64,000 bases of DNA, from assembly GCA_014384285.1 (NCBI GenBank), contig JACNGE010000014.1, positions 141,316 through 205,315 of the forward strand. The letters are read 5' to 3'. Positions 30,747 to 45,351 of the stretch are shown in pieces; within the stretch, counting starts at the first letter, position 1, and the number at the start of each line of letters is the position of its first letter. Made by a program: the position numbers and the translations under genes. The DNA comes from Actinomycetota bacterium (GTDB taxonomy: Bacteria; Actinomycetota; Acidimicrobiia; Actinomarinales; Actinomarinaceae). Under the pieces are notes generated by a model. That model worked only from the letters and a program-made list of their open reading frames with translations. It was not told the origin of the DNA and did no database searches.

Positions 30747-31424
30747 TCAATTGACGAAGACTCTTTCAGCAATATATTGATCTAAGCCAAAAAATTTCTT
30801 ATGTTCAGTGCTCACAGTAATCGAAAATTTATTACTATCTGCAATACTAATTCTTGAACCAGGAATTATTTTATTTTCCTGAAGAAAACTTATCATAGAA
30901 GAATCTCTTTTTAGTTCTTCAGTAATTTTATTAATATTGTAAATTTTATCTTTTTCTACATCAAGCAAGTTAAGTATTTTTGTTTTTTTATACTCTGAAT
31001 AAGGTATTGGATTTCCAAATAATCCAGTAGTGGGATTTCCAAGTAATGAAAGCATAGCCTTTTCAGTTGTAGGGCTTAAAATATTTTCCCATTTAGCTGC
31101 TTCTTCATAAACTTTTTCCCAAGGAAGTCCCAAAATTTCTGAAAGAAATCTTTCAACTATACGATGTCTTCGAGCAACAGTTTTTGCTAGATGTAAACCT
31201 TTATCAGTAAGCTCAAGATTATCTTGAAATTTTATTAGACCACTGTTTTGCATTCTTCCGGTTATTTGAGAAACATTAGCCCGGCTTACATCAAGCCACT
31301 CCGCAACCCTAGTTTGTTTCACATTAATACCTACTTCATTTAGATGAAATATTGCAACAGCTTGAGTGTAAAAAGATGAAGGAAGTTTTTCCATTTCTTC
31401 ATGTGAAAGTAGTTCTTTAGCCAT
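30747..31424 (-). CDS. DtxR/IdeR/MntR-family metal-dependent transcriptional repressor with a C-terminal SH3-like/FeoA-like domain
   Basis: It aligns by eye to DtxR (ARRHRIVERFL..ILGL....V.EEA..WE, FGNPIP). It is divergent from an iron-type ABC importer. Confidence 0.85.
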   Translation of the reverse strand: MAKELLSHEEMEKLPSSFYTQAVAIFHLNEVGINVKQTRVAEWLDVSRANVSQITGRMQNSGLIKFQDNLELTDKGLHLAKTVARRHRIVERFLSEILGLPWEKVYEEAAKWENILSPTTEKAMLSLLGNPTTGLFGNPIPYSEYKKTKILNLLDVEKDKIYNINKITEELKRDSSMISFLQENKIIPGSRISIADSNKFSITVSTEHKKFFGLDQYIAERVFVN

Positions 31425-31619: not shown

Positions 31620-32663
31620 ATGTTTAAAAAATCTAGTGCACTTTTTTTATTTACATTTTTGATATTTTCAGCATGTAACCAGAATACAGCAGAAGATGTT
31701 CATGATGAGATAGTTGATAAGGTTAATGAAGAATCAGCAGGTTCCTTAGTTATATACAGTGGAAGACAAGAAAGTTTAGTTTCTGAATTAATAAACAGTT
31801 TTTCAGCTGAAACAGGTGTTGTAGTTGAAGTGAGATATGCGAAAAGTTCTTCTTTAGCTGGAACCTTATCACTTGAGGGAGCAATGAGTCCAGCAGATGT
31901 ATTCTTATCACAAGATCCTCTAAGTCTAAGTATTGTTGCTAACGAAGACCTATTTGAGATTTTGCCTCAAAATATATTAAAAAATATCCCTGCTTGGGCT
32001 GTTGACCCAAATGGCTACTGGGTTGGTATTTCAGGTAGATCTCGCGCTCTCGTTGTAGACAAAAGAGATGTTTCTGATGCCGAGCTACCTGAAGAAATAT
32101 ATGGTTTAAATAGTGAAAATTTTAGGGGAAGGCTTGGTTTGGCACCAACCAATTCCTCATTCATTGCGATGGTTTCATGTATGCTGTCTCAGGACGGAGA
32201 GGAAAAAGTTTTTGAGTGGTTAACTGGTATCAATAGTCTTGAATATACAGAATATCCAAAGAACTCTCCGCAGGTTGCAGCGGCAGCTGCAGGTGAGTTA
32301 GATATTGGAATGATCAATCATTACTACACATTAAGAACAATTGCGGAAGCGGGAGATATCCCTATCAAAAATGTATTCCTCAAAAGAGGTTGTGGAGCAA
32401 TGGTCATGCCTTCTGGAGTAGGGATTCTCTCTTCAAGTAAAAATAAAGTTGCCGCTATTTCATTTGTTGAATATTTACATTCCAAGAGTGCACAAGAGCA
32501 TTTTACCAATAGCGTATTCGAGTTCCCACTTGTTACAGGCATAACTCCAAATGTACTACTACCAGATACGGATAGCTTGAATTCATCCCAAGATTTAGAC
32601 TGGTCTGCTTTAGTTTCATGGCAAGACAAAGCTGTAGAACTAATCGCTAAAGCAGGTTTTTGA
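31620..32663 (+). CDS. Fe(3+)-type ABC transporter substrate-binding lipoprotein (FbpA/AfuA-like)
   Basis: Lipobox LIFSAC and a family-1 solute-binding fold (VIYSGRQESL...). First gene of an SBP, double-domain permease, ATPase operon next to a DtxR-family gene. Confidence 0.8.
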   Translation: MFKKSSALFLFTFLIFSACNQNTAEDVHDEIVDKVNEESAGSLVIYSGRQESLVSELINSFSAETGVVVEVRYAKSSSLAGTLSLEGAMSPADVFLSQDPLSLSIVANEDLFEILPQNILKNIPAWAVDPNGYWVGISGRSRALVVDKRDVSDAELPEEIYGLNSENFRGRLGLAPTNSSFIAMVSCMLSQDGEEKVFEWLTGINSLEYTEYPKNSPQVAAAAAGELDIGMINHYYTLRTIAEAGDIPIKNVFLKRGCGAMVMPSGVGILSSSKNKVAAISFVEYLHSKSAQEHFTNSVFEFPLVTGITPNVLLPDTDSLNSSQDLDWSALVSWQDKAVELIAKAGF

Positions 32664-32742
32664 TCAAGAAGTGAAATTTTTTCAAAGTAAGGATTAAAAA
32701 TTGGTGATACTAATCCAGGTAGAATTTTTCTTTATTTAATTA

Positions 32743-34323
32743 ATGAATCCAGATAGTCTAAATGGTGTGAAAACACCAAAAATACTATTTTTTTCAAATA
32801 TAGTAATTCTGAGCATATTTCTAATGCCAATATTTTATTTGGTCTATAGATTTTTAAATTTTTCGACATCTTATACCAGCTTTTTCAATTCGTGGAATGT
32901 TTTAGATTTAGTTGGCAACACTTTTCTCTTGTTTGTTTTTGTTGTTTTATCCAGTTTAACTGTCGGTATCTCAATTTCGATTATTACTGTTCGTTTCAAT
33001 ATTTCATACCCTAAATTATTTTTTACTTTATCCGTGCTCCCATTAGTTATACCTTCTTACATAGGCGCACTAACTTATATTTCTGCCTTTTCGTCAAAAG
33101 GATTATATGTTCAACTTTTTTCTAATTTAGGAGTTACTGAAATTTCTGGAATCGATGGATTTTTTGGTAGTTGGTTGGTTCTTACATTATTTACATACCC
33201 TTATGTGTTACTGATTTGTAGTACTGCTCTTAGAAACCTTGACTCTTCAGTTGAGGATGCGGCAAGATCCTTAGGTAAAAATAAGTTCCAAATTTACACC
33301 CAAGTTGTAGTTCCTAGATTAAAAAAACCTATAATCTTTTCTGGATTATTAGTTGGCTTATATGTAATGTCAGATTTTGGTGCAGTTTCTTTAATGAGGT
33401 ATCCAACCTTAACAAAAGCTATTTATAGCTACTATGAACTAAAAATTGATGGTGATCCGGTAATATTCTACTCCAGCTTATTAATAGTCATGGCATTATT
33501 CATTAGTTTCATTCAAAGAGGAACTGATTTGAGTAAATCTTCAAAAGTTTCTGGGACACCTAAGATTTCAGAAAGAAGCAATTTAGGTGCGAAGTCAAAA
33601 TTTTTTGTATACCTCTTTCTAGTTTTTATAATTATCATGAGTTTAATTCTTCCAATTTCGGTTCTTAGCTACTGGTTAATTCGTGGATTAATTTCAGGAA
33701 ACAGTGTTAGAGCAGTTTTTGGAGGTGTTGTGGGATCCTTAAGTACTTCACTTATTGCTGCATTATTCTCGGTAATTATTGCAACACCAATAGTGATTAT
33801 GGTTTCACAATATAGATCTAAGTTTGGAAACTTTCTTGAAAGAATTATGTTAGCTCTTTATGGGCTGCCACACATTGCGGTAGGAGTATCTATATTATTT
33901 ATAACAATTAAAATCTTCCCCTCAATTTATCAAAGTTTTACAGCACTTATCATCTCATATTTGATAGTTTTCTTACCTCAGGCGATAGCAACAGGCCAAG
34001 CATCTATGGAACAAGTTAAGGCATCATATCTTGATGCAAGTGATGGATTAGGAAATTCAAAATTTCAAACATTTTATAGAATTACATTGCCTCTAATTTA
34101 CAGAGGTTTGATTGCTGGTGGAGCTTTAGTTTTCTTATCTACAATGAAAGAATTACCACAAACTTTACTTTTAAGACCAACAGGACTGAATACTATGGCT
34201 GTAGATATTTGGTCATATGCGTCTGAAGGACTCTTTACTCAAGCAGCTTTTTCTTCATTTATTTTGTTGGCAATAAGCGCTATTCCTACTTATATATTAA
34301 GTACAAGGAATTTAACAAAATAA
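32743..34323 (+). CDS. Fe(3+)-type ABC transporter permease, duplicated two-domain form (FbpB-like)
   Basis: 526 aa with two EAA-loop motifs (DAARSLGKNKFQIYTQVVVPRL and DASDGLGNSKFQTFYRITLPL). Confidence 0.85.
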   Translation: MNPDSLNGVKTPKILFFSNIVILSIFLMPIFYLVYRFLNFSTSYTSFFNSWNVLDLVGNTFLLFVFVVLSSLTVGISISIITVRFNISYPKLFFTLSVLPLVIPSYIGALTYISAFSSKGLYVQLFSNLGVTEISGIDGFFGSWLVLTLFTYPYVLLICSTALRNLDSSVEDAARSLGKNKFQIYTQVVVPRLKKPIIFSGLLVGLYVMSDFGAVSLMRYPTLTKAIYSYYELKIDGDPVIFYSSLLIVMALFISFIQRGTDLSKSSKVSGTPKISERSNLGAKSKFFVYLFLVFIIIMSLILPISVLSYWLIRGLISGNSVRAVFGGVVGSLSTSLIAALFSVIIATPIVIMVSQYRSKFGNFLERIMLALYGLPHIAVGVSILFITIKIFPSIYQSFTALIISYLIVFLPQAIATGQASMEQVKASYLDASDGLGNSKFQTFYRITLPLIYRGLIAGGALVFLSTMKELPQTLLLRPTGLNTMAVDIWSYASEGLFTQAAFSSFILLAISAIPTYILSTRNLTK

Positions 34324-35348
34324 TGGTATTTGATAGTCTTATTCTTAGAGCGAGGGGCCTCTCCAAGTCGTATGGTCATGAGTCTGTATTGAACAACTTC
34401 AATATAGATATTTGGGAAGGTTCAATATTTGGTATTTTAGGTACTTCAGGTTCTGGAAAAACTACTGCTCTTCGAATGCTTGCAGGGTTTGAAATACCCG
34501 ATTCAGGAAGTATTGAAATGCATAACAAAATAATTTTTAATAACGAGATTAATTTACCACCTGAAAACAGAAATATAGGAATGGTTTTCCAAGATTATGC
34601 TCTTTTCCCACATTTAAATGTAGAAAAAAATATTGCATTTGGATTAACTAAACAAGAACAAAATTCAGGGAGACTTCAAGAGGTAATAGAAATGTGCAAT
34701 TTAACAAAGTATAAAAACAAAATTCCACAAGAACTTTCCGGAGGACAGCAGCAGAGAGTAGCATTAGCAAGAGCACTTGCTCCTCGCCCCGAAATGATAC
34801 TTTTGGACGAACCATTTACTAGCTTAGACGCACAAATGGCGAGAGTATTACGAGATGAAGTGGTCTCACTTCTAAGAGAGACTGAGACAACTGCGATTAT
34901 TGTTACACATGATCAAGAAGAGGCATTGTCTATCTGTGACATAGTTAGTGTCCTTGAAAATGGAAATGTAATACAGAGTGCTACACCACAAGAAATTTAC
35001 TTAAACCCCATTAGCAGGTCTGTCGCAAATTCTGTAGGAGATCCAAATATTTTAAAAGGTTTTTCTGTAGATGGCAGAGTAGAGACTTCTTTAGGAAGTT
35101 TTGTTTCAGCATACGAAGGAGCCTTAGATGTTGCTATTCGTCCTGAATGTATTGAAATAAGCTTAAATTCAACAGGACCTTATACCGTTAAAGAATGTAT
35201 TTTCTATGGGCATGACCAAGTAATTTCATTTCAGAATAATAAAGGAGAAGAATTTAGAGCAAGATCTCTTCCTTCAGTAATTTATGAGCCAGGTGACAAA
35301 ATTTGTATAGAGATTTCTGAAGTTACTACTTTCCCATCAAAGAACTAA
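34323..35348 (+). CDS. Fe(3+)-type ABC transporter ATP-binding protein (FbpC-like, with a C-terminal TOBE-like domain)
   Basis: Walker A GTSGSGKTT, signature LSGGQQQRVALARAL, Walker B ILLDEPF. Its 341-aa length implies an extra C-terminal domain. Confidence 0.88.
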   Translation: MVFDSLILRARGLSKSYGHESVLNNFNIDIWEGSIFGILGTSGSGKTTALRMLAGFEIPDSGSIEMHNKIIFNNEINLPPENRNIGMVFQDYALFPHLNVEKNIAFGLTKQEQNSGRLQEVIEMCNLTKYKNKIPQELSGGQQQRVALARALAPRPEMILLDEPFTSLDAQMARVLRDEVVSLLRETETTAIIVTHDQEEALSICDIVSVLENGNVIQSATPQEIYLNPISRSVANSVGDPNILKGFSVDGRVETSLGSFVSAYEGALDVAIRPECIEISLNSTGPYTVKECIFYGHDQVISFQNNKGEEFRARSLPSVIYEPGDKICIEISEVTTFPSKN

Positions 35349-35564
35349 TTTAATTTTTGAGACTCTGCCCGCAATAGCCTGAAGAGCTATTTCAGCCTCA
35401 GATAAATAGTTTGAGGCTCTTTTAATATCATTTTCAGCAATAAACTCTCTTGAATTAGCTAAAGATTTAGCTGTAGTTGTTAATTCAGTAATTAAATCTT
35501 CAATTTCTTTATTAATTTCATTATTATCCATGTGTGTAATAATAGTTTTATACATATTTAACAA
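35337..35564 (-). CDS. Hypothetical small helical protein (64-75 aa)
   Basis: A 75-codon open frame is unlikely by chance in DNA this AT-rich. The predicted protein is helical and charged. The likelier start is the internal ATG at 35531 (MDNNEINKE...), because the 35564 start leaves only 15 nt before the divergent heliorhodopsin gene. Confidence 0.45.
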   Translation of the reverse strand: MLNMYKTIITHMDNNEINKEIEDLITELTTTAKSLANSREFIAENDIKRASNYLSEAEIALQAIAGRVSKIKLVL

Positions 35565-35579
35565 AAAGGTAAATCACTA

Positions 35580-36383
35580 ATGGAAGCAAAAATACAAAAA
35601 CTTAAAAAATTTAATTTAAGAATGGGATTAGTTCACCTAATTCAAGGGGCGGGTCTGTTTTATCTAGGAACCGTAGTTAATACTGGCTTCACAGTTCCAT
35701 TAACAGTTACACAACTTGTTGGAGTTGGCACTCCAGAAGATCCTTCCAGTTTTGCTTTAGTGCCCGAATTACAAGTATGGCGAGAAGTATCCAATTTCGG
35801 TCCTGCTGTAGCTACATTCCTATTAGCTTCAGCGTTTGCCCATTTTCTTATATCAGGACCTTTCTACAACAAGTACAAGGAAGACTTAATGAAAGGTATT
35901 AATAAAGTTCGTTGGATCGAGTATTCAATAAGTGCATCCGTAATGATTGTGCTCATTGCTTTATTAGTTGGAATATATGACGTTTGGGCGCTTGCAGGAA
36001 TATTCGTAATGAATGCAGCTATGTGCTGGTTTGGATGGATGATGGAAGTTCACAACCAATATACTGATAAGGTTGACTGGACATCTTATATTATGGGTTG
36101 TTTGGCTGGAATTGCACCCTGGATATTTATTTTTATTAACTTAATTGGGGATGGGGTCGCTACTGATGCAAACCCTCAAGGAGTACCTCAATTTGTCGTT
36201 TGGATATTTGTCAGCATCTTCTTATTTTTTAATACTTTTTCTATCAATATGATTCTGCAATACAAGGGTGTGGGAAAGTGGAAAGACTATTTATATGGAG
36301 AAAGAGCTTATATATGGTTGAGTTTATTAGCTAAAACATGTCTCGCTTGGCAGGTATTTGCAGGAACTTATCAGCCAAACTAA
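35580..36383 (+). CDS. Heliorhodopsin (7-TM retinal-binding protein with inverted topology)
   Basis: Full-length similarity by eye to heliorhodopsin 48C12 as I remember it. Matching blocks are FN...G.VHLIQ, AFAHF, RWIEYSISASVMIVLIA, FGW, CLAGIAPW, LFFFNTF...LQYKGVGKW.DYLYGERAYI.LSLLAKTCLAWQVFAGT. The putative Schiff-base residue is Lys252 and the counterion is Glu114. The N-terminus is K/R-rich. Confidence 0.9.
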   Translation: MEAKIQKLKKFNLRMGLVHLIQGAGLFYLGTVVNTGFTVPLTVTQLVGVGTPEDPSSFALVPELQVWREVSNFGPAVATFLLASAFAHFLISGPFYNKYKEDLMKGINKVRWIEYSISASVMIVLIALLVGIYDVWALAGIFVMNAAMCWFGWMMEVHNQYTDKVDWTSYIMGCLAGIAPWIFIFINLIGDGVATDANPQGVPQFVVWIFVSIFLFFNTFSINMILQYKGVGKWKDYLYGERAYIWLSLLAKTCLAWQVFAGTYQPN

Positions 36384-36459: not shown

Positions 36460-37266
36460 CTAATCTTTTTTTCTTATTTTTTTAGACAATCTGAAAATTA
36501 TATACACAGGAAGCAGAATTAACCCCAGTGAAACTGTAAGTCCCACAATGCCCTCAATCCAATTCAGACTTCTCTGAAAGTAGTAATTCCAAGAAAATAG
36601 TGATATTCCTGATCCCTCTCTTACATTTAAAGTTAGTGTTGAATATGAAGTCGCATTCTCATAAAATTCTTTTTGACCTTTGAGTCTTTCAATATCCTGA
36701 TTTACATAACGAAGTTGATTCTGAACTTCCAATCGTTCCGAAGTTGTTTTTGCTTCTAATTTAATTTCATCTAGTGCTTTTTTTTCGTTAAGAAGGGAAG
36801 ATAAACGTGAATCAATATCTAATACATAAGTTGTAACATCATTTGCGTTAACACTTATTTGTGAAAACTTTTTTATATTTTCTACGTCAATTAAAAATAA
36901 ATCAAAATCTTCAGCTGGAACGTTTACTGTAATACTGAAATTTTTTAGACCCTGGTAGTTACTTGATAGGTATGTATCAGTTATATTTCCTCCATATTGT
37001 TTTACAAGATTTTGGAACTCACTAACTTTATCGTCAAAATTAGAACTACTAACATCGACACTACCGTATGCAGACTTTAAGATATATTCTCCTTGAGAGA
37101 TAGAGTCACTTTCCATAGTGTCTGCGCTTATTCTAGAAGATGTGTAAGGCTCGTTAACAGGCATCATTCCTATTTCAGATTGACTATCACCGAAAAAATC
37201 TGTCGAAATTGAACCACTACATGCACCTATAAATAAACCGATTAATGTTAATTTAAAATATTTCAT
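36460..37266 (-). CDS. DUF4349-like lipoprotein (N-terminal lipobox, central coiled coil, C-terminal TM anchor)
   Basis: Lipobox LFIGACSG, a coiled-coil segment (LSSLLNEKKALDEIKLEAK...RLKGQKE), and a C-terminal TM helix followed by a KKIRKKD tail. Confidence 0.65.
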   Translation of the reverse strand: MKYFKLTLIGLFIGACSGSISTDFFGDSQSEIGMMPVNEPYTSSRISADTMESDSISQGEYILKSAYGSVDVSSSNFDDKVSEFQNLVKQYGGNITDTYLSSNYQGLKNFSITVNVPAEDFDLFLIDVENIKKFSQISVNANDVTTYVLDIDSRLSSLLNEKKALDEIKLEAKTTSERLEVQNQLRYVNQDIERLKGQKEFYENATSYSTLTLNVREGSGISLFSWNYYFQRSLNWIEGIVGLTVSLGLILLPVYIIFRLSKKIRKKD

Positions 37267-37282: not shown

Positions 37283-38377
37283 CTAAAAATTGGTTAGCTC
37301 TATTACCGGTACTTCCATTTCTTCTGAAGTCACCCCTCCGTGATAGCCAACTAATTCAGCTTTCAAATGTTTAGGAAAAACAATATAGCCATCCGCCACT
37401 AAAAAGCAGTAATCAGGATAGAGTCTTTTGCTTAAGTTTGACTCAGGATTCCCAAGTAATTGTTTGACTTCATCATTAGTGAGAAAATTTCCAGGTACAT
37501 TTTTAAAGAGCTGTCTTACTTTAGAAGATTCCCCATTTATGTAGACGCTTCTTTGATCTCCAAAGATTTCAATATCGTCTGAGTAATCTAGGTAGATTCG
37601 ATTATCTTCCGGGATATTTGTAAGTCCATGATCAGCAGTTATTAAAGTATAGGTTTTTCTAGATTGGGAATTGTTTAATTTTTTTATAAAGTTTTCAAAG
37701 ATGCCTATTTCTGTATGCCACTCTTCGCTACCAACACCAAATACATGAGCTGAAATATCAATATTAGGATAATAAATAAAATTGAAACGATTATCTAGAA
37801 CAGACGAATCGCTAATAATTTCATTTAATTCGTCAGTATCTTTATAACCTATTTGATGAGAGTCTTTATAAATATATTCAGACAAAGCACTATTTATTAA
37901 ATCCTTTGGTTGCAGGTTATTAGATGTAATACCTCTCGCCTTTAATGTTGTCCAAATGGTTTTATTATCTTTTATATCTTCATCTTTTAGTAAATCTTTA
38001 TTTTCGTAATTCCAGTTCAATGCATTAATCAGTCCATATTGAACCTTGTCAAAAAGATAATAACCAAGAATAGATGTATCACATGGTTTAGCAACATAGT
38101 TAATTGTGCTTAAAGCGACATTTGTAGAACTTGGGAATGTAGAGTTTACAGAAAATGAATTAAAACTTTTTAAATAATCTGATCTAGAAATTTTTAGATT
38201 TTCATTTCCTAGGCCATCAGCTAAAACAAAATTGATTGTTTCAGCATTCAAAATTTTAGAGTGAAGATTGACTTCACGTTCCTCTTGAAATTCATCTGTG
38301 TTTAGTACTACGTTGAAGATTTTTTTTGATAGATCGAGTAAGTTACTTTTATCAATAATTGTTTCTAAATTCCTCAT
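37283..38377 (-). CDS. Alkaline-phosphatase-superfamily protein (type I phosphodiesterase/nucleotide pyrophosphatase-like)
   Basis: Contains FVLADGLG, TFPSSTN, ITADHGLT and GYHGGVTSEEMEVPV, the metal and nucleophile blocks of the NPP/AlkP fold. No signal peptide is visible. Confidence 0.7.
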   Translation of the reverse strand: MRNLETIIDKSNLLDLSKKIFNVVLNTDEFQEEREVNLHSKILNAETINFVLADGLGNENLKISRSDYLKSFNSFSVNSTFPSSTNVALSTINYVAKPCDTSILGYYLFDKVQYGLINALNWNYENKDLLKDEDIKDNKTIWTTLKARGITSNNLQPKDLINSALSEYIYKDSHQIGYKDTDELNEIISDSSVLDNRFNFIYYPNIDISAHVFGVGSEEWHTEIGIFENFIKKLNNSQSRKTYTLITADHGLTNIPEDNRIYLDYSDDIEIFGDQRSVYINGESSKVRQLFKNVPGNFLTNDEVKQLLGNPESNLSKRLYPDYCFLVADGYIVFPKHLKAELVGYHGGVTSEEMEVPVIELTNF

Positions 38378-38453: not shown

Positions 38454-38819
38454 ATGAATTCATATTTTCAAGAGTATGCAACAGTAGCTGTGCTGCTAGC
38501 GGTAGGCATAATTTTTATGCTTGCCTTAACTACAATTGCATCAATCTTAAGGCCAAACAATCCATCAAAAGAAAAACTTACAACCTATGAATCAGGTGTT
38601 GACCCAGTGGGAACAGGATGGAGTCAAACATATGTTAGATACTATATATTTGGCCTACTGTTCGTTATTTTTGATGTTGAGGCAGTGTTTATATTTCCGT
38701 GGGCAATTAATCTTGAGAAGTTGGGTTATTTTGGATTAGTAGAAATGCTAGTTTTTATTTTTATTTTGCTAATTGGCTTAATCTACGCAATTAGAAAGGA
38801 TGTTTTAAAGTGGGAGTAG
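38454..38819 (+). CDS. nuoA: NADH-quinone oxidoreductase subunit A (operon 2)
   Basis: 3-TM protein with YESGV and FDVE motifs. First gene of the second nuo array. Confidence 0.92.
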
Positions 38820-39307
38820 TTGATAAATTTGGATTACCAAAACCTATATCTTCAGTGTTGAATTGGGCTAGGTCTTACTCTCTGTGGTATTTTCAATTCG
38901 GACTTGCGTGTTGTGCTATTGAAGTTATGGCTGTAAGTGGACCAAGGCACGACTTCATGAGACTAGGGATAATCCCACTACCTGCCTCACCAAGACAAGC
39001 CGATTTAATGGTAGTTGCTGGCACGGTAACTGATAAAATGGCACCCGCAGTGAAGAGATTATATGATCAAATGCCTGAGCCAAAATATGTTATTTCTATG
39101 GGATCATGTTCAAACAGTGGAGGTCCGTATTGGGATTCTTACTCCGTAACAAAAGGCGTTGACCAATTAATCCCAGTTGATGTTTATGTTCCAGGATGTC
39201 CACCAAGACCTGAAGCTCTGCAAGAGGGAATTATTCTCCTTCAGGAAAAAATAAGAGGAGAAGACATGAAAGAGAAGTGGAAGGCAGATCAAAATGAACC
39301 TGTCTAA
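38810..39307 (+). CDS. nuoB: NADH-quinone oxidoreductase subunit B (operon 2)
   Basis: CCAIEVM ... GSCSNSGG ... VPGCPPRPE (N2 cluster ligands). Confidence 0.95.
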
Positions 39308-39848
39308 CAATGTAGAATTTGTAGAATCACTCACAGCAGCTTTTCCCAGTCTAGAAAATAGTTTTGATACTTTGAAAATAACTGTGAAGTCCTCAGATTG
39401 GATTGACACTGTTGATAAATTAAAGAATGAATTTGAATTAACATACTTTTCGTGGCTGAGCGCCATTGACTGGGACAATGAAGTTGCCATAGGAGATCCT
39501 CCTAAGGAACCAGTTACACCACATTTTGAAATATTATGCTGTTTATCAGATTCTTTTGCAGGAAATTTAGTCATAGTCTCTACCCAAATTGATAAAGAAA
39601 CTCCACAAATCCCTTCCTTAGTTGGGGTTTTTGCAGGTTCTAATTGGCATGAAAGAGAAGCTTATGAGATGTTTGGAATTGAATTTATCAACCATCCTAA
39701 TTTAACAAAAATGTACCTTCCAGATGACTATGAAGGCAATCCCATGCTTAAATCATTTGAGTTGATTAGCAGAGAAGTAAAGCCATGGCCTGGTGAAGTT
39801 GATGTAGAAGGTATGCCAGATGATGGAAAAGAAGAAGGAGAGAGTTAA
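39294..39848 (+). CDS. nuoC: NADH-quinone oxidoreductase subunit C (operon 2)
   Basis: Contains [16 protein letters not shown] and the LPDDYEGNP block. Confidence 0.92.
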
Positions 39849-41045
39849 GTGGATGAGAATTTAAACTCGGGCAGTATTCCCTATGTCTCCGAAGCTTCTG
39901 TATCTGTTGAGATAGAAACTGAAGATATGACACTCAACATAGGACCTCAACATCCTTCAACACATGGAGTGCTAAGACTTGTTGCAAAAGTTGATGGAGA
40001 AAAAATTTCAAGTGTTGAACCAGTGCTTGGATACATGCATAGAGGTTATGAGAAATTAGCTGAGGTTAGAACTTATCCCCAAATAACAACACTCGTCAAC
40101 AGAATTGATTGGGTATCTGGTTTTGCAAATGAGATTCCTTTTATTGCTGCAACTGAAAAACTTATGGAGATTGAAGCGCCAGAACGAGCAAAGCATATTC
40201 GACTAATTCTCACTGAAATGGCGAGAATTGCTTCACACTTTGTTTTTAATGGTGCATATGCCCTTGAAATAGGAGCATTAACTCCAATTTTTTTAGCAAT
40301 GGAAGACAGAGAAAGAATTCTTGATTTAATAGAGTCAGTTACAGGAGGAAGATTCCACCCTAACTTCAATAGAATAGGCGGGATAAAACCTGCAGCTGGT
40401 TCAGGTCCTACAACAAAAAAGAATATCCAAGATTTACCTGCTGGGTTTTACCAAGACACCCGTGATGCTATGGAAAAAGTTTTAGAAGCTGTTGAAAGAA
40501 TGGAAAACCTTGTTGGTGGTAATGAAGTGTTTAAAATCAGGACTAAAGGTGTGGGTATTATTTCAAAAGAGCTTGCAGAAGAGTATGGAGTTTCTGGCCC
40601 GATTTTAAGAGCATCAGGGGTTAAATTTGATCTAAGATCACAAACTGATTTCTTGCCATATGATAAATTTGATTACGACATTCCAATTGGGGAAAACGGA
40701 GATTGTTATGATCGATGGTATGTTCGATTAATGGAAATGAAAGAGTCTGCAAAAATTATACTCCAAGCTATCGACTCAATGCCAAGTGGACCCCTCCAAA
40801 CTAAGGTTCCAAAAGTAATAAAAGTCCCAAAGGGTCAATCTTATGTTCGAACTGAGAATCCAAAAGGGGAAATGGGTTATTATGTTATATCCGAGGGAGG
40901 GCTTGGACCATATAGGCTTAAAGTTAGAACCCCTTCTTTTAGCAATATTTCAATTCTTCCTGTTTTGCTTGAAGGGCAGTTGTTACCTGACCTAATAGCA
41001 ATTATGGGCAGTTTAGATTTTGTCTTAGGAGATGTTGATAGATGA
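39849..41045 (+). CDS. nuoD: NADH-quinone oxidoreductase subunit D (operon 2)
   Basis: NIGPQHPSTHGVLRL, GYMHRGYEKL and the C-terminal LDFVLGDVDR. GTG start. Confidence 0.95.
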   Translation: MDENLNSGSIPYVSEASVSVEIETEDMTLNIGPQHPSTHGVLRLVAKVDGEKISSVEPVLGYMHRGYEKLAEVRTYPQITTLVNRIDWVSGFANEIPFIAATEKLMEIEAPERAKHIRLILTEMARIASHFVFNGAYALEIGALTPIFLAMEDRERILDLIESVTGGRFHPNFNRIGGIKPAAGSGPTTKKNIQDLPAGFYQDTRDAMEKVLEAVERMENLVGGNEVFKIRTKGVGIISKELAEEYGVSGPILRASGVKFDLRSQTDFLPYDKFDYDIPIGENGDCYDRWYVRLMEMKESAKIILQAIDSMPSGPLQTKVPKVIKVPKGQSYVRTENPKGEMGYYVISEGGLGPYRLKVRTPSFSNISILPVLLEGQLLPDLIAIMGSLDFVLGDVDR

Positions 41046-42022
41046 TTGATGGATCACAGGTACTTGTTACAGCAGGCATAATTCTTGCTTTTGCATTAAA
41101 TGGCGCAGTAATATTCACAATTCTTGATGTCAAAGGAGCATCATGGATGCAAAGACGACCGGGACCTCTTCATGTCGGTTTAAGAGGATTTATATTTCCA
41201 TTGGCTGAGATTATCAAGTTTTTTCAAAAAGAAGATATAACTCCTACAAATGTGGACTCAGCAGTCTTCAAATGGGCACCAGCTTATGTACTTGCTTCCG
41301 TGTTCGGATTATTTGTTGTAGTTCCAATTAGCCCAACTTTAGTTGGTAGTGATTTAGACCTTGGAGTCTTCTATCTTCTAGCAATCAGCTCTTTGTCAAC
41401 TCTTGGAGTACTTACGGCAGGATGGTCATCTGCAAACAAATATTCATTAATGGGTGGAATTCGTGCAGCAGGACAACTTATTGCTTATGAGCTTCCTCTG
41501 ATCCTTGCAGTAGTTGGAGTAGTTATCCAAGCTGAAACAATGTCTCTTGTTGGAATAGTGGAAAAGCAAATTGAATTTGGACTTCCATTTGTTCTTTCTG
41601 GTCAAGGTTTGGCATTTTTAATATTTATGGTTGCTGCAACGGCAGAAATGATGAGAGTACCATTTGATATGCCAATTGGCGAGTCCGAACTTGTTAGCGG
41701 TTTTTTAACTGAATATTCAGGAGTAAGGTTCTTAATATTTTATATAGCGGAATATATGAATATGTTCGTTTTATGTGCTGTAGCTTCAACCCTATTCCTA
41801 GGTGGATATCATGTTCCGTTGCTACCTACTGAATGGGTAAATTTTTATGGCCCTGTTGTACTACTGACTAAGACTGTTTTATTAGGCTTTATTTTAGTTT
41901 TAGTTAGATGGTCATTTCCAAGATTTAGAGAAGACCAGCTTCAAAACTTGGCATGGAAAGTATTAATCCCCCTTTCCCTTTTAAATATCTTGATAACATC
42001 AATAATGAAAGTAGTTTTCTAA
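41042..42022 (+). CDS. nuoH: NADH-quinone oxidoreductase subunit H (operon 2)
   Basis: MRVPFDMPIGESELVSGFLTEYSG and PRFREDQL. It follows nuoD directly with a 4-nt overlap, so there is no room for nuoEFG. Confidence 0.95.
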   Translation: MIDGSQVLVTAGIILAFALNGAVIFTILDVKGASWMQRRPGPLHVGLRGFIFPLAEIIKFFQKEDITPTNVDSAVFKWAPAYVLASVFGLFVVVPISPTLVGSDLDLGVFYLLAISSLSTLGVLTAGWSSANKYSLMGGIRAAGQLIAYELPLILAVVGVVIQAETMSLVGIVEKQIEFGLPFVLSGQGLAFLIFMVAATAEMMRVPFDMPIGESELVSGFLTEYSGVRFLIFYIAEYMNMFVLCAVASTLFLGGYHVPLLPTEWVNFYGPVVLLTKTVLLGFILVLVRWSFPRFREDQLQNLAWKVLIPLSLLNILITSIMKVVF

Positions 42023-42508
42023 ATGAGAAACTTTAGACCTAAGCTTCCCGGTTTTTTAACAGGAATGAAAATTCTATTATTTAATATGTTCAAGACTTTA
42101 TCGCCGTTAAGCCCAAATCCTAATGTGAACTACCCGTTCGAAAAAGAAATAGTTGCACCAAGAGCAAGGGGAGTTATCGCACTTGACCAAGAAGCATGTA
42201 CAAGTTGTATGCTTTGCGCTAGACAGTGCCCAGATTGGTGTATATATATAGAGGGCCATAAAGAATTACAACCACCCGCAAAACCTGGCGGAAGACAACG
42301 AAGTAGAGCTGTTTTAGACAGGTTTGATATTGATTACGCTCTTTGCATGTACTGTGGCATCTGTGTTGAGGTGTGTCCTTTTGACGCTCTTTTTTGGACA
42401 CCTGAATATGAATATTCCGAATACAATATGGGGGATATGCTTCATGATAAAAACAGACTTGATCAATGGCTTGAAACAGTACCTGAAATTGAAGGTTTAG
42501 AAAGTTAA
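42023..42508 (+). CDS. nuoI: NADH-quinone oxidoreductase subunit I (operon 2)
   Basis: Two 4Fe-4S motifs: CTSCMLCARQCP and CMYCGICVEVCP. Confidence 0.94.
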   Translation: MRNFRPKLPGFLTGMKILLFNMFKTLSPLSPNPNVNYPFEKEIVAPRARGVIALDQEACTSCMLCARQCPDWCIYIEGHKELQPPAKPGGRQRSRAVLDRFDIDYALCMYCGICVEVCPFDALFWTPEYEYSEYNMGDMLHDKNRLDQWLETVPEIEGLES

Positions 42509-42510
42509 TT

Positions 42511-43029
42511 ATGGAAGCCCTAGATATTATTAGCTATTTTTTACTTTTGGGACTCTTATTAGCTGCAGTTAAAGTTGTAACAACCTCAAATGTTATTCAC
42601 GCTGCAATTTCTTTAGTATTTACACTAGCTTTGACCGCAGGAACTTTTTTATTGCTATCAGCCGAGTTTGTCGCACTTGTAATAGTCCTTGTTTATATTG
42701 GAGCGGTAATTGTACTCTTCTTATTTGGAATAATGATTACAAGAGCTCCACTAGGACAAAATGCAGAATTAGATAACGAAAAAAATAAAGGGTTAGCTCT
42801 TGGTGTTTCTCTTTCCATTTTTGGAATTTTTTCATACGTGATGTTAAATACTTTTGACTCACAAATTAACACAACCAGTGGAACATCAACTGAGTTACTT
42901 GGAGAGATACTACTCAGTAGATTTGTATTTCCATTCGAAGTTGTATCTTTTGTATTACTAGCAGCTTTGATTGGTGGAATTACACTAGCACGACAAGATA
43001 ACGCCCTCATGGATGAGAATCAAATATGA
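42511..43029 (+). CDS. nuoJ: NADH-quinone oxidoreductase subunit J (operon 2)
   Basis: Membrane subunit with the LVIVLVYIGAVIVLFLFGIMI block, in the expected operon position. Confidence 0.9.
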   Translation: MEALDIISYFLLLGLLLAAVKVVTTSNVIHAAISLVFTLALTAGTFLLLSAEFVALVIVLVYIGAVIVLFLFGIMITRAPLGQNAELDNEKNKGLALGVSLSIFGIFSYVMLNTFDSQINTTSGTSTELLGEILLSRFVFPFEVVSFVLLAALIGGITLARQDNALMDENQI

Positions 43030-43331
43030 GTGTTCAACCATTCTTAATTGCTGCAGCTGGATTATTCTCAATCGGAATTTATGGAATTTTAGTCAGAAGG
43101 AATGTTGTTATGGTTCTTTTGTCAATTGAGTTAATTCTTAATGCAGTGAATATAAATTTTGTAGTTTTTGATGCGATGCTTAGAGATGCCATGCTTCAAG
43201 GGCAAATTTTTACTATTTTCATTATTACAATAGCTGCTGCTGAAGTTGGTATAGGTTTAGCGATTGTTTTGATGTTATTTAGAAATAGAAAAACTGCAAA
43301 CATAAATGAATTTGATTTGATGAAATGGTAA
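43026..43331 (+). CDS. nuoK: NADH-quinone oxidoreductase subunit K (operon 2)
   Basis: 101-aa, 3-TM protein with the SIELILNAVNI and AAAEVGIGLAI motifs. Confidence 0.93.
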   Translation: MSVQPFLIAAAGLFSIGIYGILVRRNVVMVLLSIELILNAVNINFVVFDAMLRDAMLQGQIFTIFIITIAAAEVGIGLAIVLMLFRNRKTANINEFDLMKW

Positions 43332-45343
43332 ATACTAATTTAATTTCTTTACTCGCTGAGGGAAAACCAACATTTACTGATGGCGGTATTGCTGCAGAAT
43401 ACACATGGTTAATTGTTGTTTTGCCATTTATAGCTGCACTTATAATTACTTTCTTTGGAAAATACCTGCCACTCAAAGGTGCTGAAATTGCACTCGCCAC
43501 AATTGCTTTTATATTTGCTTTTAGTTCATATCTTCTCTATCTCAATGTGATAGAGGGTGTGGCATCAGAATTTTATATTAATGTCGGAAGCATAGGCTCA
43601 TTCGATCTTGAATTTGGATGGGTAGTAGATGGCTTATCTATAATGATGTATTTTGTTGTTGGAACTGTGGCTACTCTTGTTTTCATTTATGCAACTAACT
43701 ATATGAAAGGAGAAGTTCGTTATACATTTTTCTTCACTTCCTTGACCCTTTTTGCTGGAAGTATGTTGGTTCTAGTGTCATCCCCAACATTATTACAATT
43801 ACTGATTGGATGGGAGCTTGTTGGTGTCTGTTCATATTTACTAATTGGTCACTATTGGGAAAATAAAGAAAATTCTTCAGCAGCCATGAAAGCATTTATA
43901 ACAAACAAAATTGCTGATGTTGGTTTAATGATTGGAATTATTGTCCTAGCACTATCTACAGGAACTATGAGAATTAGCGAGATTCTTTATCAGTCAACAC
44001 ATGATTATCAATCTCTAAAATCTGTTGCTTATCTCGCTGGAGTTTTATTGTTTATAGGAGCTATGGGCAAAAGTGCTCAATTCCCACTTCATGTATGGTT
44101 ACCAGATGCAATGGCTGGTCCTACACCAGTATCTGCGCTAATGCATGCTGCAACTATGGTTACTGCTGGAGTTTATTTATTAGCAAGAATGTTTCCTTTT
44201 TACCAAGGTATGGCCAGTCAAGCACTAGACGTAGTCTTACTCTTTGGTGTGGTTACTCTTTTTGCTGCAGGGTTGATAGCTATAGTTCAAGATGATTTAA
44301 AGAAAGTTTTAGCATATTCAACTGTAAGTCAGCTTGGTTATATGGTTGCTGCCATCGGTTCAGGTGCATATACTGCTGCACTATTCCATCTTTGGACCCA
44401 TGCATTTTTTAAAGCATTATTATTTTTGGGTGCTGGTTCTGTGATTCACGCTGTACACACTAACAGCATGAGAGAAATGGGTGGACTCAGAAAGGAAATG
44501 CCAAGGACTTATATAACTTTTATCGTTGGAACAATAGCACTTGCTGGACTACCTCCACTCGCCGGATTTTTCTCAAAGGATGAGATACTTGCTTCTCTAA
44601 ATCATGGTGGCTTTAGTACTTATTTTGCAATTGCGGTAGCTGGTGCATTTATTACAGCATTTTATATGACTCGAGCAGTTGTTCTAACATTCTTTGGTGA
44701 CTATAGAGGTAGCGGACACCCACATGAATCTGACACAATGATGACAACACCTCTTCTTGTACTAGCTGGATTTGCCGTAGCAGCCGGCTGGGTAAACATT
44801 CCAGGTGTATACACAGGATTTACTGACTGGGTAACCACAAGAAAGAATCCAATAATTGAATATCATCCAGAGTCTTTTGACTACTTTGCACTTAGTAGCG
44901 GTCTAATTGCAGGTTTAGTTGGAATAGGACTAGCGTATTACGTTTACCAAATTCTTGGAAAACCGGAAGATGGAGACCAGAAGATTAAGATTGATTCTGT
45001 GTGGAAGTTACTTGAAAATAAATATTATTTGGACGATTTTTATTTTAAATTCATTATAAATCCAACAAAATCCACACTTGCAAATATTGTTGATAAGTTC
45101 AATACAAATATTTTAGACCGAACGGTAAATATGTTTGGAATAGCTGCTTCATATCTAGGTAACCTTGTTTATGAAAAATTTGATCAAGGAGGAATAGACA
45201 GGGCTTTGAATGCTTCTTCATCATCTACAGATGCCCTAGGTGCTAGAGTAAAACTCTTGCAAACTGGAAAAGCTCAACAGTATATTATGTATTTTTTAAG
45301 CGGTGTGATAGTAATTAGCTTATTAATTTTGTTAGTGTTATAG
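43325..45343 (+). CDS. nuoL: NADH-quinone oxidoreductase subunit L (operon 2)
   Basis: Contains WELVGVCSYLLIGHYW, GKSAQFPLHVWLPDAMAGPTP and HAFFKALLFLGAG. Confidence 0.95.
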   Translation: MVNTNLISLLAEGKPTFTDGGIAAEYTWLIVVLPFIAALIITFFGKYLPLKGAEIALATIAFIFAFSSYLLYLNVIEGVASEFYINVGSIGSFDLEFGWVVDGLSIMMYFVVGTVATLVFIYATNYMKGEVRYTFFFTSLTLFAGSMLVLVSSPTLLQLLIGWELVGVCSYLLIGHYWENKENSSAAMKAFITNKIADVGLMIGIIVLALSTGTMRISEILYQSTHDYQSLKSVAYLAGVLLFIGAMGKSAQFPLHVWLPDAMAGPTPVSALMHAATMVTAGVYLLARMFPFYQGMASQALDVVLLFGVVTLFAAGLIAIVQDDLKKVLAYSTVSQLGYMVAAIGSGAYTAALFHLWTHAFFKALLFLGAGSVIHAVHTNSMREMGGLRKEMPRTYITFIVGTIALAGLPPLAGFFSKDEILASLNHGGFSTYFAIAVAGAFITAFYMTRAVVLTFFGDYRGSGHPHESDTMMTTPLLVLAGFAVAAGWVNIPGVYTGFTDWVTTRKNPIIEYHPESFDYFALSSGLIAGLVGIGLAYYVYQILGKPEDGDQKIKIDSVWKLLENKYYLDDFYFKFIINPTKSTLANIVDKFNTNILDRTVNMFGIAASYLGNLVYEKFDQGGIDRALNASSSSTDALGARVKLLQTGKAQQYIMYFLSGVIVISLLILLVL

Positions 45344-45351
45344 GAGGTAAA

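What the first reader, a model, noticed from the sequence alone, without database searches (positions are those of the whole stretch)
35580..36383. Heliorhodopsin gene (inverted-topology retinal protein) in a core-metabolic neighbourhood
The 267-aa ORF is a 7-TM protein that matches, block for block, the heliorhodopsin family as I remember the 48C12 prototype. The matching blocks are RW[IV]EYS[IL]S.SVMIVLIA in TM3, FGW, C[IL]AGI.PW, and the C-terminal LF.FFN.F...LQYKG.GKW..YL.GERAYI.LSL.AK..LAWQ.F.GT. Several functional positions can be assigned. Lys252 (nt 36333-36335) sits where the retinal Schiff-base lysine should be. Glu114 (RWIEYS) is at the single-counterion position. His19 and His88 correspond to the two conserved histidines. 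The N-terminus before TM1 is strongly basic (MEAKIQKLKKFNLR). By the positive-inside rule this puts it in the cytoplasm, opposite to type-1 rhodopsins, which is the defining oddity of the family. No type-1 DTE/DTD-style proton-relay motif is visible. The physiological role of heliorhodopsins is still largely unresolved: the founding members do not pump ions and have very long photocycles, and only a few partner enzymes have been proposed in particular species. That makes this the most system-like unknown in the window. No glutamine synthetase or photolyase gene (the partners reported elsewhere) and no retinal biosynthesis genes (blh, crtEBIY) occur in these 64 kb. The gene sits between an iron-uptake operon and a second complex-I operon.
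Basis: partly seen in the sequence, partly recalled or inferred. Interest (0 to 1): 0.85.

Follow-up and report, generated by a model that had tools for sequence, protein, structure and literature searches.

The report
Known heliorhodopsin of marine Actinomarina
The gene is a genuine heliorhodopsin (a light-sensing retinal membrane protein with inverted orientation) from the tiny marine bacterium Candidatus Actinomarina, but this gene and its neighbourhood were already described in three papers, so it is a correct call rather than a new discovery.

Summary
The 267-aa ORF at 35580-36383 (+) is real and is a heliorhodopsin (HeR). It scores 295.8 bits on Pfam PF18761 (cutoff 26.7) and 313.8 bits on the NCBIfam HeR equivalog (cutoff 100). 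Its best solved relatives are TaHeR (E 4e-67) and 48C12 (E 2e-57). K252, E114, H19 and H88 align with the Schiff-base Lys, the counterion Glu and the two conserved His of both structures.

The window comes from Candidatus Actinomarina. Fifty-two species-level genomes carry the orthologue (81-97% identity) in the same gene order.

This gene, its position next to afuABC and the 11-subunit nuo operon, and the lack of retinal synthesis genes in these genomes were published by Kovalev 2020, López-Pérez 2020 and Bulzu 2021. No publication found here reports its function.

New here:
- HeR is bracketed by opposite-strand genes, so it is probably a stand-alone transcription unit.
- It is under very strong purifying selection (dN/dS about 0.01).
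- A conserved 64-aa helical-hairpin orphan gene lies about 48 bp upstream on the opposite strand.
- A sister lineage keeps the same synteny but has a low-molecular-weight phosphatase gene in the HeR slot, so the neighbours do not need an adjacent HeR.

Most likely it is a non-pumping photoreceptor that uses exogenous retinal. Its partner is unknown.

The parts
35580..36383 (+). Heliorhodopsin CDS, 267 aa plus stop
   Evidence: ORF confirmed. Pfam PF18761 295.8 bits. NCBIfam NF038020 313.8 bits. PDB relatives 6is6, 6su3, 9ljj. AF2 model pLDDT 83.9 with 7 TM helices and an AB-loop beta-hairpin.
36333..36335 (+). Lys252 codon (AAA), the predicted retinal Schiff-base lysine
   Evidence: Aligns with K241 of 48C12 and K238 of TaHeR. 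Invariant in 25 HeRs.
35919..35921 (+). Glu114 codon, the single Schiff-base counterion position
   Evidence: Aligns with E107 (48C12) and E108 (TaHeR). Invariant.
35634..35636 (+). His19 codon (TM A histidine)
   Evidence: Aligns with H23 of both structures. Invariant.
35841..35843 (+). His88 codon (TM B histidine)
   Evidence: Aligns with H80 (48C12) and H82 (TaHeR). Invariant.
35691..35792 (+). Long AB-loop beta-hairpin (residues 38-71), predicted extracellular. It carries the clade-specific 5-aa insertion VGVGT (residues 47-51).
   Evidence: DSSP strands E38-49 and E59-71 in the model. The insertion is seen only in the Actinomarina clade in alignment A3.
36087..36242 (+). Lateral fenestration / proposed carotenoid-binding-site positions: Y170, C174, G177 (TM E) and F217, N218, S221 (TM F)
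   Evidence: They map to 48C12 F162/C166/G169/F206/N207/A210. The motif is defined in preprint 10.1101/2025.11.27.691015.
35532..35579 (.). 48-bp AT-rich spacer between the divergent starts of the 64-aa gene and HeR. It includes an AAAGG Shine-Dalgarno-like element at 35565-35569.
   Evidence: Sequence read directly. The spacer is 45-60 bp with a G-rich element before the HeR start in all 52 orthologous loci. No consensus sigma-70 match was scored here, so a promoter is inferred from the gene arrangement only.
35337..35531 (-). Conserved 64-aa orphan gene (helical hairpin), divergent from HeR. Its 3' end overlaps the afuC stop by 12 nt.
   Evidence: Present in all Actinomarina loci. Gapless 64-column alignment with 14-21 invariant columns. 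dN/dS 0.09-0.19. AF2 pLDDT 96.7 with two helices. No Pfam or NCBIfam hit. Only 15 clusters among 1.84 billion representatives.
36460..37266 (-). DUF4349 gene, convergent with HeR and a variable accessory of the slot. The product looks like a lipoprotein with a C-terminal TM segment (judged by eye from the translation).
   Evidence: Pfam PF14257. Detected in 34 of the 52 full-length HeR loci and in none of the LMWPc-slot contigs.
37283..38377 (-). Alkaline-phosphatase-superfamily phosphodiesterase-like gene (context)
   Evidence: Pfam PF01663 38 bits. Conserved in all loci, with or without HeR.
31620..35348 (+). afuA/afuB/afuC-type Fe3+ ABC importer operon (context): binding protein 31620-32663, fused permease 32743-34323, ATPase with TOBE domain 34323-35348
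   Evidence: Pfam SBP_bac_6, 2x BPD_transp_1, ABC_tran+TOBE_2. Named afuABC in Bulzu 2021.
30747..31424 (-). DtxR/IdeR-family iron-dependent repressor gene (context)
   Evidence: Pfam Fe_dep_repr_C and Fe_dep_repress.
38454..48424 (+). 11-subunit complex-I operon nuoABCDHIJKLMN without E/F/G (context)
   Evidence: Pfam hits for each subunit. Described in López-Pérez 2020 and Bulzu 2021.

Best explanation
The gene encodes a canonical heliorhodopsin of Candidatus Actinomarina.

Shown here:
- It has seven TM helices, the long AB-loop beta-hairpin typical of the family, a Schiff-base lysine (K252), a single Glu counterion (E114), both conserved histidines, and the complete polar Schiff-base-cavity residue set.
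- The lateral fenestration motif is intact.
- The charge distribution puts the N-terminus in the cytoplasm.
- The gene is conserved in one fixed locus in 52 species-level genomes and is under very strong purifying selection.
- It is bracketed by opposite-strand genes.

Inferred:
- It binds all-trans retinal scavenged from seawater, probably through the fenestration. The literature reports no retinal pathway in these genomes.
- It does not pump ions. Like 48C12 and TaHeR, it forms a long-lived photointermediate whose cytoplasmic-loop conformational change modulates a partner protein.
- It is transcribed on its own from the ~48-bp divergent spacer.
- The partner is not identifiable from gene order and is most likely encoded elsewhere in the genome. 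The iron importer, the 64-aa gene and the nuo-2 operon keep the same arrangement in a related lineage that has no HeR in this slot.
For: Family membership. Residue mapping to 48C12 and TaHeR, including S84, N108, R111, W112, Y115, N145, M148, E156, E241, S248, W257, Q258 and the fenestration motif. 66 invariant columns across 25 HeRs. Fold. Charge bias 14 vs 1 K/R. Organism and 52 orthologous loci with conserved synteny. dN/dS 0.008-0.014, comparable to nuoD and 5-10 times lower than afuABC. Opposite-strand neighbours on both sides. HeR-less slot variant with otherwise identical synteny. No retinal genes genome-wide, and HeR present in all described genera: López-Pérez 2020 PMC7771536. HeRs as non-pumping, partner-modulating photoreceptors: PMC11109279 and Bulzu 2021.
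Against: No experiment exists for this protein. Pigment formation, the photocycle and the absence of transport are extrapolated from relatives that are only 49-52% identical.

The clade has its own substitutions near the chromophore (C149 at the 48C12 I142 position, M224 at Q213, T253-C254 next to the lysine) and extra extracellular loop residues. These could change its properties.

No consensus promoter or terminator was detected around the gene, so the stand-alone transcription unit is inferred from gene orientation only.

The HeR-less contigs are fragments of at most 16 kb, so a HeR elsewhere in those genomes is not excluded.
Confidence: 0.6

Rival explanations
1. HeR is a light-dependent modulator of the adjacent Fe3+ ABC importer AfuBC, by analogy with OcHeR, which binds and up-regulates the OmrDE ABC exporter in light.
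For: afuABC lies immediately upstream on the same strand in 52 of 52 loci. There is a precedent for HeR-ABC transporter regulation (PMC11109279). Bulzu 2021 proposed a functional unit afuABC-HeR-nuo.
Against: A conserved opposite-strand gene separates afuC from HeR. afuABC keeps the same arrangement where the slot holds an LMW phosphatase gene instead of HeR. The precedent is a fused-domain exporter, not a binding-protein-dependent importer. All 14 genes tested within about 10 kb are syntenic across the clade, so adjacency carries little information. No relative of the afu, nuo-2, PDE, DUF4349 or 64-aa genes lies near the distant HeRs L054-L080; the only hits there are five generic ABC-ATPase matches at 27-36% identity. 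The candidate iron-repressor operator is absent upstream of HeR.
Confidence: 0.1
2. HeR is a light switch for the downstream 11-subunit (possibly F420- or ferredoxin-linked) complex I.
For: The gene lies between the two nuo clusters in all genomes. This was noted as suggestive by Kovalev 2020, López-Pérez 2020 and Bulzu 2021.
Against: One or two opposite-strand genes lie between HeR and nuoA. nuoA2-D2 are retained at 57-92% identity next to the HeR-less slot. There is no such linkage in other HeR clades.
Confidence: 0.07
3. HeR and the divergent 64-aa helical-hairpin protein form a sensor-soluble transducer pair, like Anabaena sensory rhodopsin and its transducer, expressed from a shared bidirectional promoter.
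For: The small gene is conserved next to HeR in 52 of 52 loci with a 45-60 bp shared spacer. It is a real, constrained protein with a confident fold and no known family.
Against: Its homologue is kept at the same place, convergent with afuC, in all 10 contigs where HeR is replaced by an LMW phosphatase gene. So it tracks the locus, not HeR. It evolves about 10 times faster than HeR. It has no homologue near HeRs of other lineages.
Confidence: 0.07
4. HeR itself does the work. It could be a carotenoid-antenna light harvester, an ion transporter like viral V2HeR3, or an enzyme acting on carbonate or nitrate in the Schiff-base cavity.
For: The fenestration / carotenoid-binding motif is complete (preprint). 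The polar cavity residues are conserved. The enzymatic idea was raised by Kovalev 2020.
Against: The protein lacks the viral subfamily-2 signatures: no His at 48C12 positions 162/166, and the binding-site motif is present. The founding members 48C12 and TaHeR show no transport (literature). No enzymatic activity has been demonstrated for any HeR.
Confidence: 0.1

Closest known systems
Ca. Actinomarinales heliorhodopsin clade (cluster C11 of Bulzu et al. 2021; López-Pérez et al. 2020, Fig. 5)
   Same: It is the same protein clade (81-97% identity to 52 species-level genomes). The locus is the same: afuABC upstream, then 11-subunit nuo, NDUFAF7-like methyltransferase, HtpX, rhodanese and pfkB kinase downstream. 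The genomes likewise lack retinal biosynthesis.
   Different: Nothing essential differs. This report adds the conserved opposite-strand 64-aa gene and PDE gene, which contradict the published statement that only same-strand genes are conserved. It also adds the HeR-less slot variant.
TaHeR, Thermoplasmatales archaeon SG8-52-1 heliorhodopsin (PDB 6is6, 7u55)
   Same: It is the best solved relative (E 4.4e-67, 52% identity). H23, H82, E108, Y109, R105, Y164, N204, S234 and K238 are all matched. Both have Met at the 48C12 Q213 position.
   Different: The window protein has about 18 extra residues, all in predicted extracellular loops: the end of TM A, the AB hairpin and the EF loop. It has Cys149 where TaHeR has Asn143.
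Heliorhodopsin 48C12 (PDB 6su3, 6su4, 9ljj), the founding member
   Same: 49% identity. All key residues listed by Kovalev 2020 that were mapped here are conserved except Q213, and the fenestration residues are conserved too. Both come from aquatic Actinobacteria.
   Different: Q213 is Met, S112 is Ala and I142 is Cys. The AB loop is longer.
OcHeR-OmrDE (Ornithinimicrobium cerasi HeR regulating an ABC multidrug exporter; PMC11109279)
   Same: It is a HeR encoded next to ABC transporter genes.
   Different: There the genes are predicted to be co-transcribed and the transporter is a heterodimeric exporter. Here the transporter is a binding-protein-dependent Fe3+ importer, and it is separated from HeR by an opposite-strand gene.
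Type-1 microbial rhodopsins (e.g. MACRhodopsin of the same organisms)
   Same: Both are 7-TM retinal proteins with a lysine in the last helix. The literature reports that both are present in Actinomarina genomes.
   Different: There is no Pfam Bac_rhodopsin hit. The protein has a single Glu counterion, Ser at the BR-D212 position, and opposite predicted topology. The literature places the MACR gene elsewhere in the genome, next to the photolyase gene.

Membership tests
Heliorhodopsin (Pfam PF18761 / NCBIfam NF038020) | Full-length significant match to the family profile above the curated cutoff | tested here: met
   PF18761 295.8 bits vs 26.7, profile positions 1-241 of 242. NF038020 equivalog 313.8 bits vs 100.
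Heliorhodopsin (Pfam PF18761 / NCBIfam NF038020) | Schiff-base lysine in the seventh helix | tested here: met
   K252 aligns with K241 (48C12) and K238 (TaHeR). It is invariant and lies in helix 238-263.
Heliorhodopsin (Pfam PF18761 / NCBIfam NF038020) | Single Glu counterion in helix C, with Ser at the position of the second carboxylate of type-1 pumps | tested here: met
   E114 = E107 and S248 = S237.
Heliorhodopsin (Pfam PF18761 / NCBIfam NF038020) | Two conserved histidines lining the Schiff-base cavity | tested here: met
   H19 = H23 and H88 = H80/H82. Both are invariant.
Heliorhodopsin (Pfam PF18761 / NCBIfam NF038020) | Seven TM helices with a long beta-hairpin AB loop | tested here: met
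   AF2 model pLDDT 83.9 with 7 long helices, strands 38-49 and 59-71, and a short ICL1 helix 96-104.
Heliorhodopsin (Pfam PF18761 / NCBIfam NF038020) | Inverted topology (N-terminus cytoplasmic) | tested here: met
   This is a computational test only. Predicted inside loops hold 14 K/R in 60 aa, and outside loops hold 1 K/R and 6 D/E in 61 aa. This matches the positive-inside/negative-outside pattern reported for 48C12. Experimental topology is not testable here.
Heliorhodopsin (Pfam PF18761 / NCBIfam NF038020) | Binds all-trans retinal, forms a visible pigment, has a slow photocycle and shows no ion pumping | not testable with these tools
   Needs expression and spectroscopy. No characterization of this clade turned up among the papers holding both 'heliorhodopsin' and 'Actinomarina' or in the 2023+ heliorhodopsin list.
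Heliorhodopsin (Pfam PF18761 / NCBIfam NF038020) | Host is a monoderm | tested here: met
   The host is Ca. Actinomarina, Actinomycetota. The few records labelled Proteobacteria or Verrucomicrobiales carry Actinomarina-type sequence, which suggests binning errors.
Heliorhodopsin (Pfam PF18761 / NCBIfam NF038020) | Lateral fenestration / carotenoid-binding-site motif: aromatic 162 and 206, small 166 and 210, Gly169 | tested here: met
   Y170, C174, G177, F217, S221, plus N218.
Type-1 ion-pumping rhodopsin (Pfam Bac_rhodopsin) | Profile match and a DTD/DTE-type carboxylate relay | tested here: not met
   PF18761 is the only Pfam family hit at E <= 0.01. There is a single Glu and no second carboxylate.
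Viral-type transporting heliorhodopsins (Kovalev subfamily 2, V2HeR3-like) | Altered retinal pocket (His at 48C12 positions 162/166; no Asn138 analogue; no binding-site motif) | tested here: not met
   The protein has Y170 and C174, N145 is present and the motif is present.
HeR-partner operon groups of PMC11109279 (GS, NAD synthetase, photolyase, MerR, TerC, ABC transporter, SDR, hydrolase, DUF2177, DUF2238) | Partner gene adjacent and predicted to be co-transcribed with HeR | tested here: not met
   Both immediate neighbours are on the opposite strand. None of the non-transporter partner families was found among the ORFs scanned. The nearby ABC system is an importer lying beyond an antisense gene.

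The most novel reading that the evidence does not exclude
The Actinomarinales-restricted 64-aa helical-hairpin protein, encoded divergently about 48 bp from HeR and conserved in all 52 HeR loci, is the missing soluble signal transducer (or a co-regulated effector) of this heliorhodopsin. That would make a minimal two-gene photosensory module in one of the smallest free-living cells.
Probability: 0.07. Interest if true: 0.6.

Novelty: already known. Interest (0 to 1): 0.3.

Why it matters
What heliorhodopsins do is still an open question, and Ca. Actinomarina is one of the most abundant photoheterotrophs in the surface ocean. It has about 1.1 Mb of genome and very little regulatory machinery. 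A HeR kept under near-maximal constraint in such a genome must be doing something important.

The gene and its context are not new, so the finding itself does not move the field. The additions made here narrow the published speculation that HeR works together with afuABC or complex I. They also point to a natural comparison (HeR-bearing versus HeR-less lineages) that could be mined in existing complete genomes and diel metatranscriptomes.

Tried and rejected
1. Iron-regulon link. A mycobacterial-type IdeR box (TWAGGTWAGSCTWACCTWA, up to 3 mismatches) has no match in the window. A local 20-bp palindrome ATGTTAA-N6-TTAACAT occurs twice in the IdeR/afuA intergenic region but not near HeR, and three matches at up to 2 mismatches is not above chance. 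So there is no evidence that HeR is iron-regulated.

2. Promoter and terminator scan around HeR. There is no consensus promoter in the 48-bp spacer and no terminator after HeR. The only terminator-like hairpin (35394-35418, + strand) lies inside the 64-aa gene, just after afuC.

3. Fold search of the 64-aa protein against the PDB. It returned only generic helical hairpins (DesK DHp, Mediator, designed bundles), none with E <= 0.001. No conserved His exists for a DHp-like role.

4. Deep profile search for the 64-aa protein. It found only 15 clusters, all small marine proteins, and no link to a known family.

I solved this by re-finding them with the third indexed search.

6. Polarity of the HeR/LMWPc slot swap. 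The first tree script timed out. The NJ tree gives a robust LMWPc clade, but the midpoint root is not reliable. I do not claim loss over gain.

7. I considered the 423-aa FAD protein at 10856-12127 as a possible carotenoid enzyme. I rejected this because it is a geranylgeranyl-reductase type, and its Lycopene_cycl hit is below cutoff and covers only the Rossmann N-terminus.
Full report
**Observation**

The codons named are correct: K252 AAA 36333-36335, E114 GAG 35919-35921, H19 CAC 35634-35636, H88 CAT 35841-35843. The first 15 residues carry five K/R and one acidic residue.

**Identity**

The protein matches Pfam Heliorhodopsin PF18761 over the whole profile (E 2.9e-88, 295.8 bits, cutoff 26.7). 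It matches the NCBIfam equivalog 'heliorhodopsin HeR' at 313.8 bits against a cutoff of 100. No type-1 rhodopsin model is hit.

Among solved structures the best matches are TaHeR (6is6, E 4.4e-67) and 48C12 (6su3 and 9ljj, E about 2e-57), followed by the eukaryotic Cv06 (9vfc).

I threaded the printed alignments. H19, H88, E114 and K252 fall on H23, H80/H82, E107/E108 and K241/K238. The rest of the polar Schiff-base-cavity set is also conserved: S84, N108, R111, W112, Y115, S118, N145, M148, E156, Y237, E241, S248, W257, Q258. The position of the second carboxylate of type-1 pumps is Ser. Overall identity is 49% to 48C12 and 52% to TaHeR.

An AlphaFold2 model built on 25 HeRs (pLDDT 83.9, pTM 0.79) shows seven long helices. 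It also shows the two structural hallmarks of the family: the AB-loop beta-hairpin (strands 38-49 and 59-71) and a short helix in the first intracellular loop.

Using those helix boundaries, the predicted cytoplasmic segments hold 14 K/R in 60 residues. The extracellular segments hold 1 K/R and 6 D/E in 61 residues. This is the positive-inside/negative-outside pattern reported for 48C12.

The lateral fenestration motif, recently proposed as a carotenoid-binding site, is complete: Y170, C174, G177, F217, N218, S221 (criteria). The signatures of the viral transporting subfamily are absent.

**Organism and conservation**

A scan of one genome per GTDB species returned 52 full-length orthologues at 81-97% identity. 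Almost all are labelled Candidatus Actinomarina, Actinomarinales or OCS155. The next-best hits drop to 54% identity or less (Thermoplasmata, Methanomassiliicoccales, Patescibacteria). The 5.8-billion-protein index shows the same gap, and it holds clusters of over a thousand member sequences from marine metagenomes.

The window fits this streamlined lineage: GC about 0.34, dense coding and mostly one strand.

The gene order is: thymidine kinase, DUF454, DtxR/IdeR repressor, afuA, afuB, afuC, small ORF (-), HeR, [DUF4349 (-)], phosphodiesterase-like (-), nuoA-N. Every locus long enough to show this order has it (Pfam).

Nei-Gojobori estimates against the three closest genomes give dN/dS of 0.008-0.014 for HeR. 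This is comparable to nuoD and somewhat above nuoB, and 5-10 times lower than afuA, afuB, the repressor or the flanking minus-strand genes. dS is near saturation, so the ratios are rough, but the ranking is clear.

**What was already known**

This is not a new discovery.

- López-Pérez et al. 2020 (PMC7771536) report that all Ca. Actinomarinales genera carry one type-1 rhodopsin (MACR) and one heliorhodopsin. The HeR gene always sits between the two nuo operons, beside an Fe3+ ABC transporter and an iron-dependent repressor. The second nuo cluster lacks EFG, the key residues match 48C12, and the genomes lack retinal biosynthesis genes.
- Kovalev et al. 2020 (PMC7049168) point out the nuo clusters flanking the HeR genes of aquatic actinobacteria such as Ca. 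Actinomarina.
- Bulzu et al. 2021 define this clade as cluster C11. They list the context afuABC-HeR-11-subunit complex I-NDUFAF7-htpX-pspE-adenosine kinase, which is what Pfam finds downstream in this window.
- A 2026 preprint with 84 complete Actinomarina genomes still calls it 'a heliorhodopsin of unknown function'.

I found no experimental characterization of this clade.

Several first-nuo-operon subunits and the ribosomal-protein/rpoB block were identified by size and order only.

**What this analysis adds**

*1. HeR is not contiguous with either operon.*

Its upstream neighbour is a divergent minus-strand gene. Its downstream neighbour is a convergent minus-strand gene: DUF4349, or the phosphodiesterase-like gene where DUF4349 is absent.

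Bulzu et al. state that only same-strand genes are conserved, and they propose one transcriptional unit. Here the minus-strand small gene and the phosphodiesterase-like gene are conserved in all 52 genomes. Only DUF4349 varies, and it was detected in 34 of the 52.

HeR is therefore most simply a stand-alone unit. It would be read from a 45-60-bp AT-rich spacer with a G-rich ribosome-binding site. This is an inference from gene orientation, because no consensus promoter or terminator was scored.

*2. The upstream gene is a real, previously uncommented protein.*

Its conserved core starts at the ATG at 35531 and is 64 aa. Orthologues align without a single gap and have 14-21 invariant positions. 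dN/dS is 0.09-0.19. AlphaFold2 gives a two-helix hairpin at pLDDT 96.7.

It has no Pfam or NCBIfam family and no significant structural neighbour. It has only 15 clusters among 1.84 billion representatives.

*3. A natural variant of the locus exists.*

The most divergent homologue of the small protein (P0295) led to ten metagenomic contigs of up to 16 kb. They keep the order TK-DUF454-IdeR-afuABC-small gene(-)-[slot]-PDE(-)-nuoA2BCD.

In these contigs the slot holds a low-molecular-weight phosphatase/ArsC-like gene (PF01451). It lies in the same orientation HeR would have, and there is no HeR or DUF4349. That phosphatase gene is absent from the window and from all HeR loci.

A five-protein NJ tree makes this lineage a robust clade (30 of 30 bootstraps). 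With midpoint rooting it falls among the HeR-bearing clades. The root is unreliable, so either loss or gain of HeR is possible.

Either way, the iron importer, the small gene and nuo-2 persist unchanged without an adjacent HeR. In addition, no relative of the window's afu, nuo-2, PDE, DUF4349 or small genes lies next to the more distant HeRs. The only hits there are five generic ABC-ATPase matches at 27-36% identity. Conserved adjacency within this highly syntenic clade is therefore weak evidence for functional coupling.

*4. No iron-regulation link was found.*

No canonical iron box occurs in the window. A candidate operator palindrome is confined to the IdeR/afuA intergenic region.

*5. Clade-specific features of the protein.*

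All the clade-specific insertions lie in the extracellular half of the model: at the outer end of TM A, in the AB hairpin and in the EF loop. There are also a few substitutions near the chromophore: C149 at the 48C12 I142 position, M224 at Q213, and T253-C254 next to the lysine.

**Mechanism**

The best-supported reading has three parts. The protein is a canonical heliorhodopsin. It takes up exogenous all-trans retinal, since the genome has no pathway and the fenestration is intact. It acts as a slow-cycling, non-pumping photoreceptor whose cytoplasmic face modulates a partner, as shown for other HeRs.

The identity and architecture are shown. Chromophore binding, the photocycle, the lack of transport and the existence of a partner are inferred from relatives about 50% identical.

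Three specific partners suggested by gene order remain possible: AfuBC, complex I and the 64-aa protein. Each is weakened by the HeR-less slot variant and by the intervening opposite-strand genes.

**Verdict**

The call is correct and carefully argued, but the feature is already in the literature for exactly this lineage and locus. Interest is modest. It rests on the open question of HeR function and on the small additions above, not on novelty.

Noticed in passing
window 35337-35531 (-): A conserved 64-aa helical-hairpin orphan gene, restricted to Actinomarinales. It is divergent from HeR and overlaps the afuC stop by 12 nt. Public sources call it 'hypothetical protein', with start calls of 64 or 72 aa. 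The ORF lister extends it to a TTG at 35564 (75 aa), but conservation starts at the ATG at 35531.
   Followed up: yes
L083-L092 (e.g. L083:5504-5881), and L081:353-733: In a related marine lineage the slot occupied by HeR (with or without DUF4349) holds a low-molecular-weight phosphatase/ArsC-like gene (PF01451) in the same orientation. The flanking synteny is otherwise identical. L083 also has a possible 23-aa hydrophobic mini-ORF in the spacer (about 5990-6060).
   Followed up: partly
window 36460-37266 (-): The DUF4349 gene was detected in 34 of the 52 full-length Actinomarina HeR loci and in none of the HeR-less loci. It is a small presence/absence polymorphism immediately downstream of HeR. 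By eye its product has a lipoprotein-like N-terminus and a C-terminal TM segment.
   Followed up: partly
window 31434-31453 and 31569-31588: Two perfect copies of a 20-bp palindrome, ATGTTAA-N6-TTAACAT, lie in the divergent intergenic region between the DtxR/IdeR-family repressor gene and afuA. This is a candidate operator that differs from the mycobacterial iron-box consensus.
   Followed up: partly
window 53912-54496 and 54493-54864 (+): An ECF sigma factor gene is followed by an overlapping 123-aa gene with no family hit. The 123-aa product has an H-x3-C-x2-C (zinc anti-sigma) motif and a C-terminal TM helix, so it is probably a membrane-anchored ZAS anti-sigma factor. It sits in the tRNA/secE-nusG region.
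   Followed up: partly
window 10095-10739 (-) and 10856-12127 (+): A Rex-like redox-sensing repressor gene (Put_DNA-bind_N + CoA_binding) and a geranylgeranyl-reductase-type FAD enzyme gene sit just upstream of the first, 14-subunit nuo operon (12203-26468).
   Followed up: no
L053 (JAQBWI010000065.1), L063, and protein P0154: Contigs or proteins with Actinomarina-type HeR or the 64-aa gene are labelled 'Proteobacteria bacterium' or 'Verrucomicrobiales bacterium' in public MAGs. L053 has the full Actinomarina synteny, so these look like binning errors. This bears on the old debate about HeRs in diderms.
   Followed up: partly
window 27388-28209, 28654-29199, 29196-29576 (-), 51615-52472 (-), 1758-2603: Five ORFs of 125-284 aa have no Pfam hit (two of them also have no NCBIfam hit). 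López-Pérez 2020 mention a ferrochelatase in this inter-nuo region, and I did not find one among the Pfam hits.
   Followed up: no
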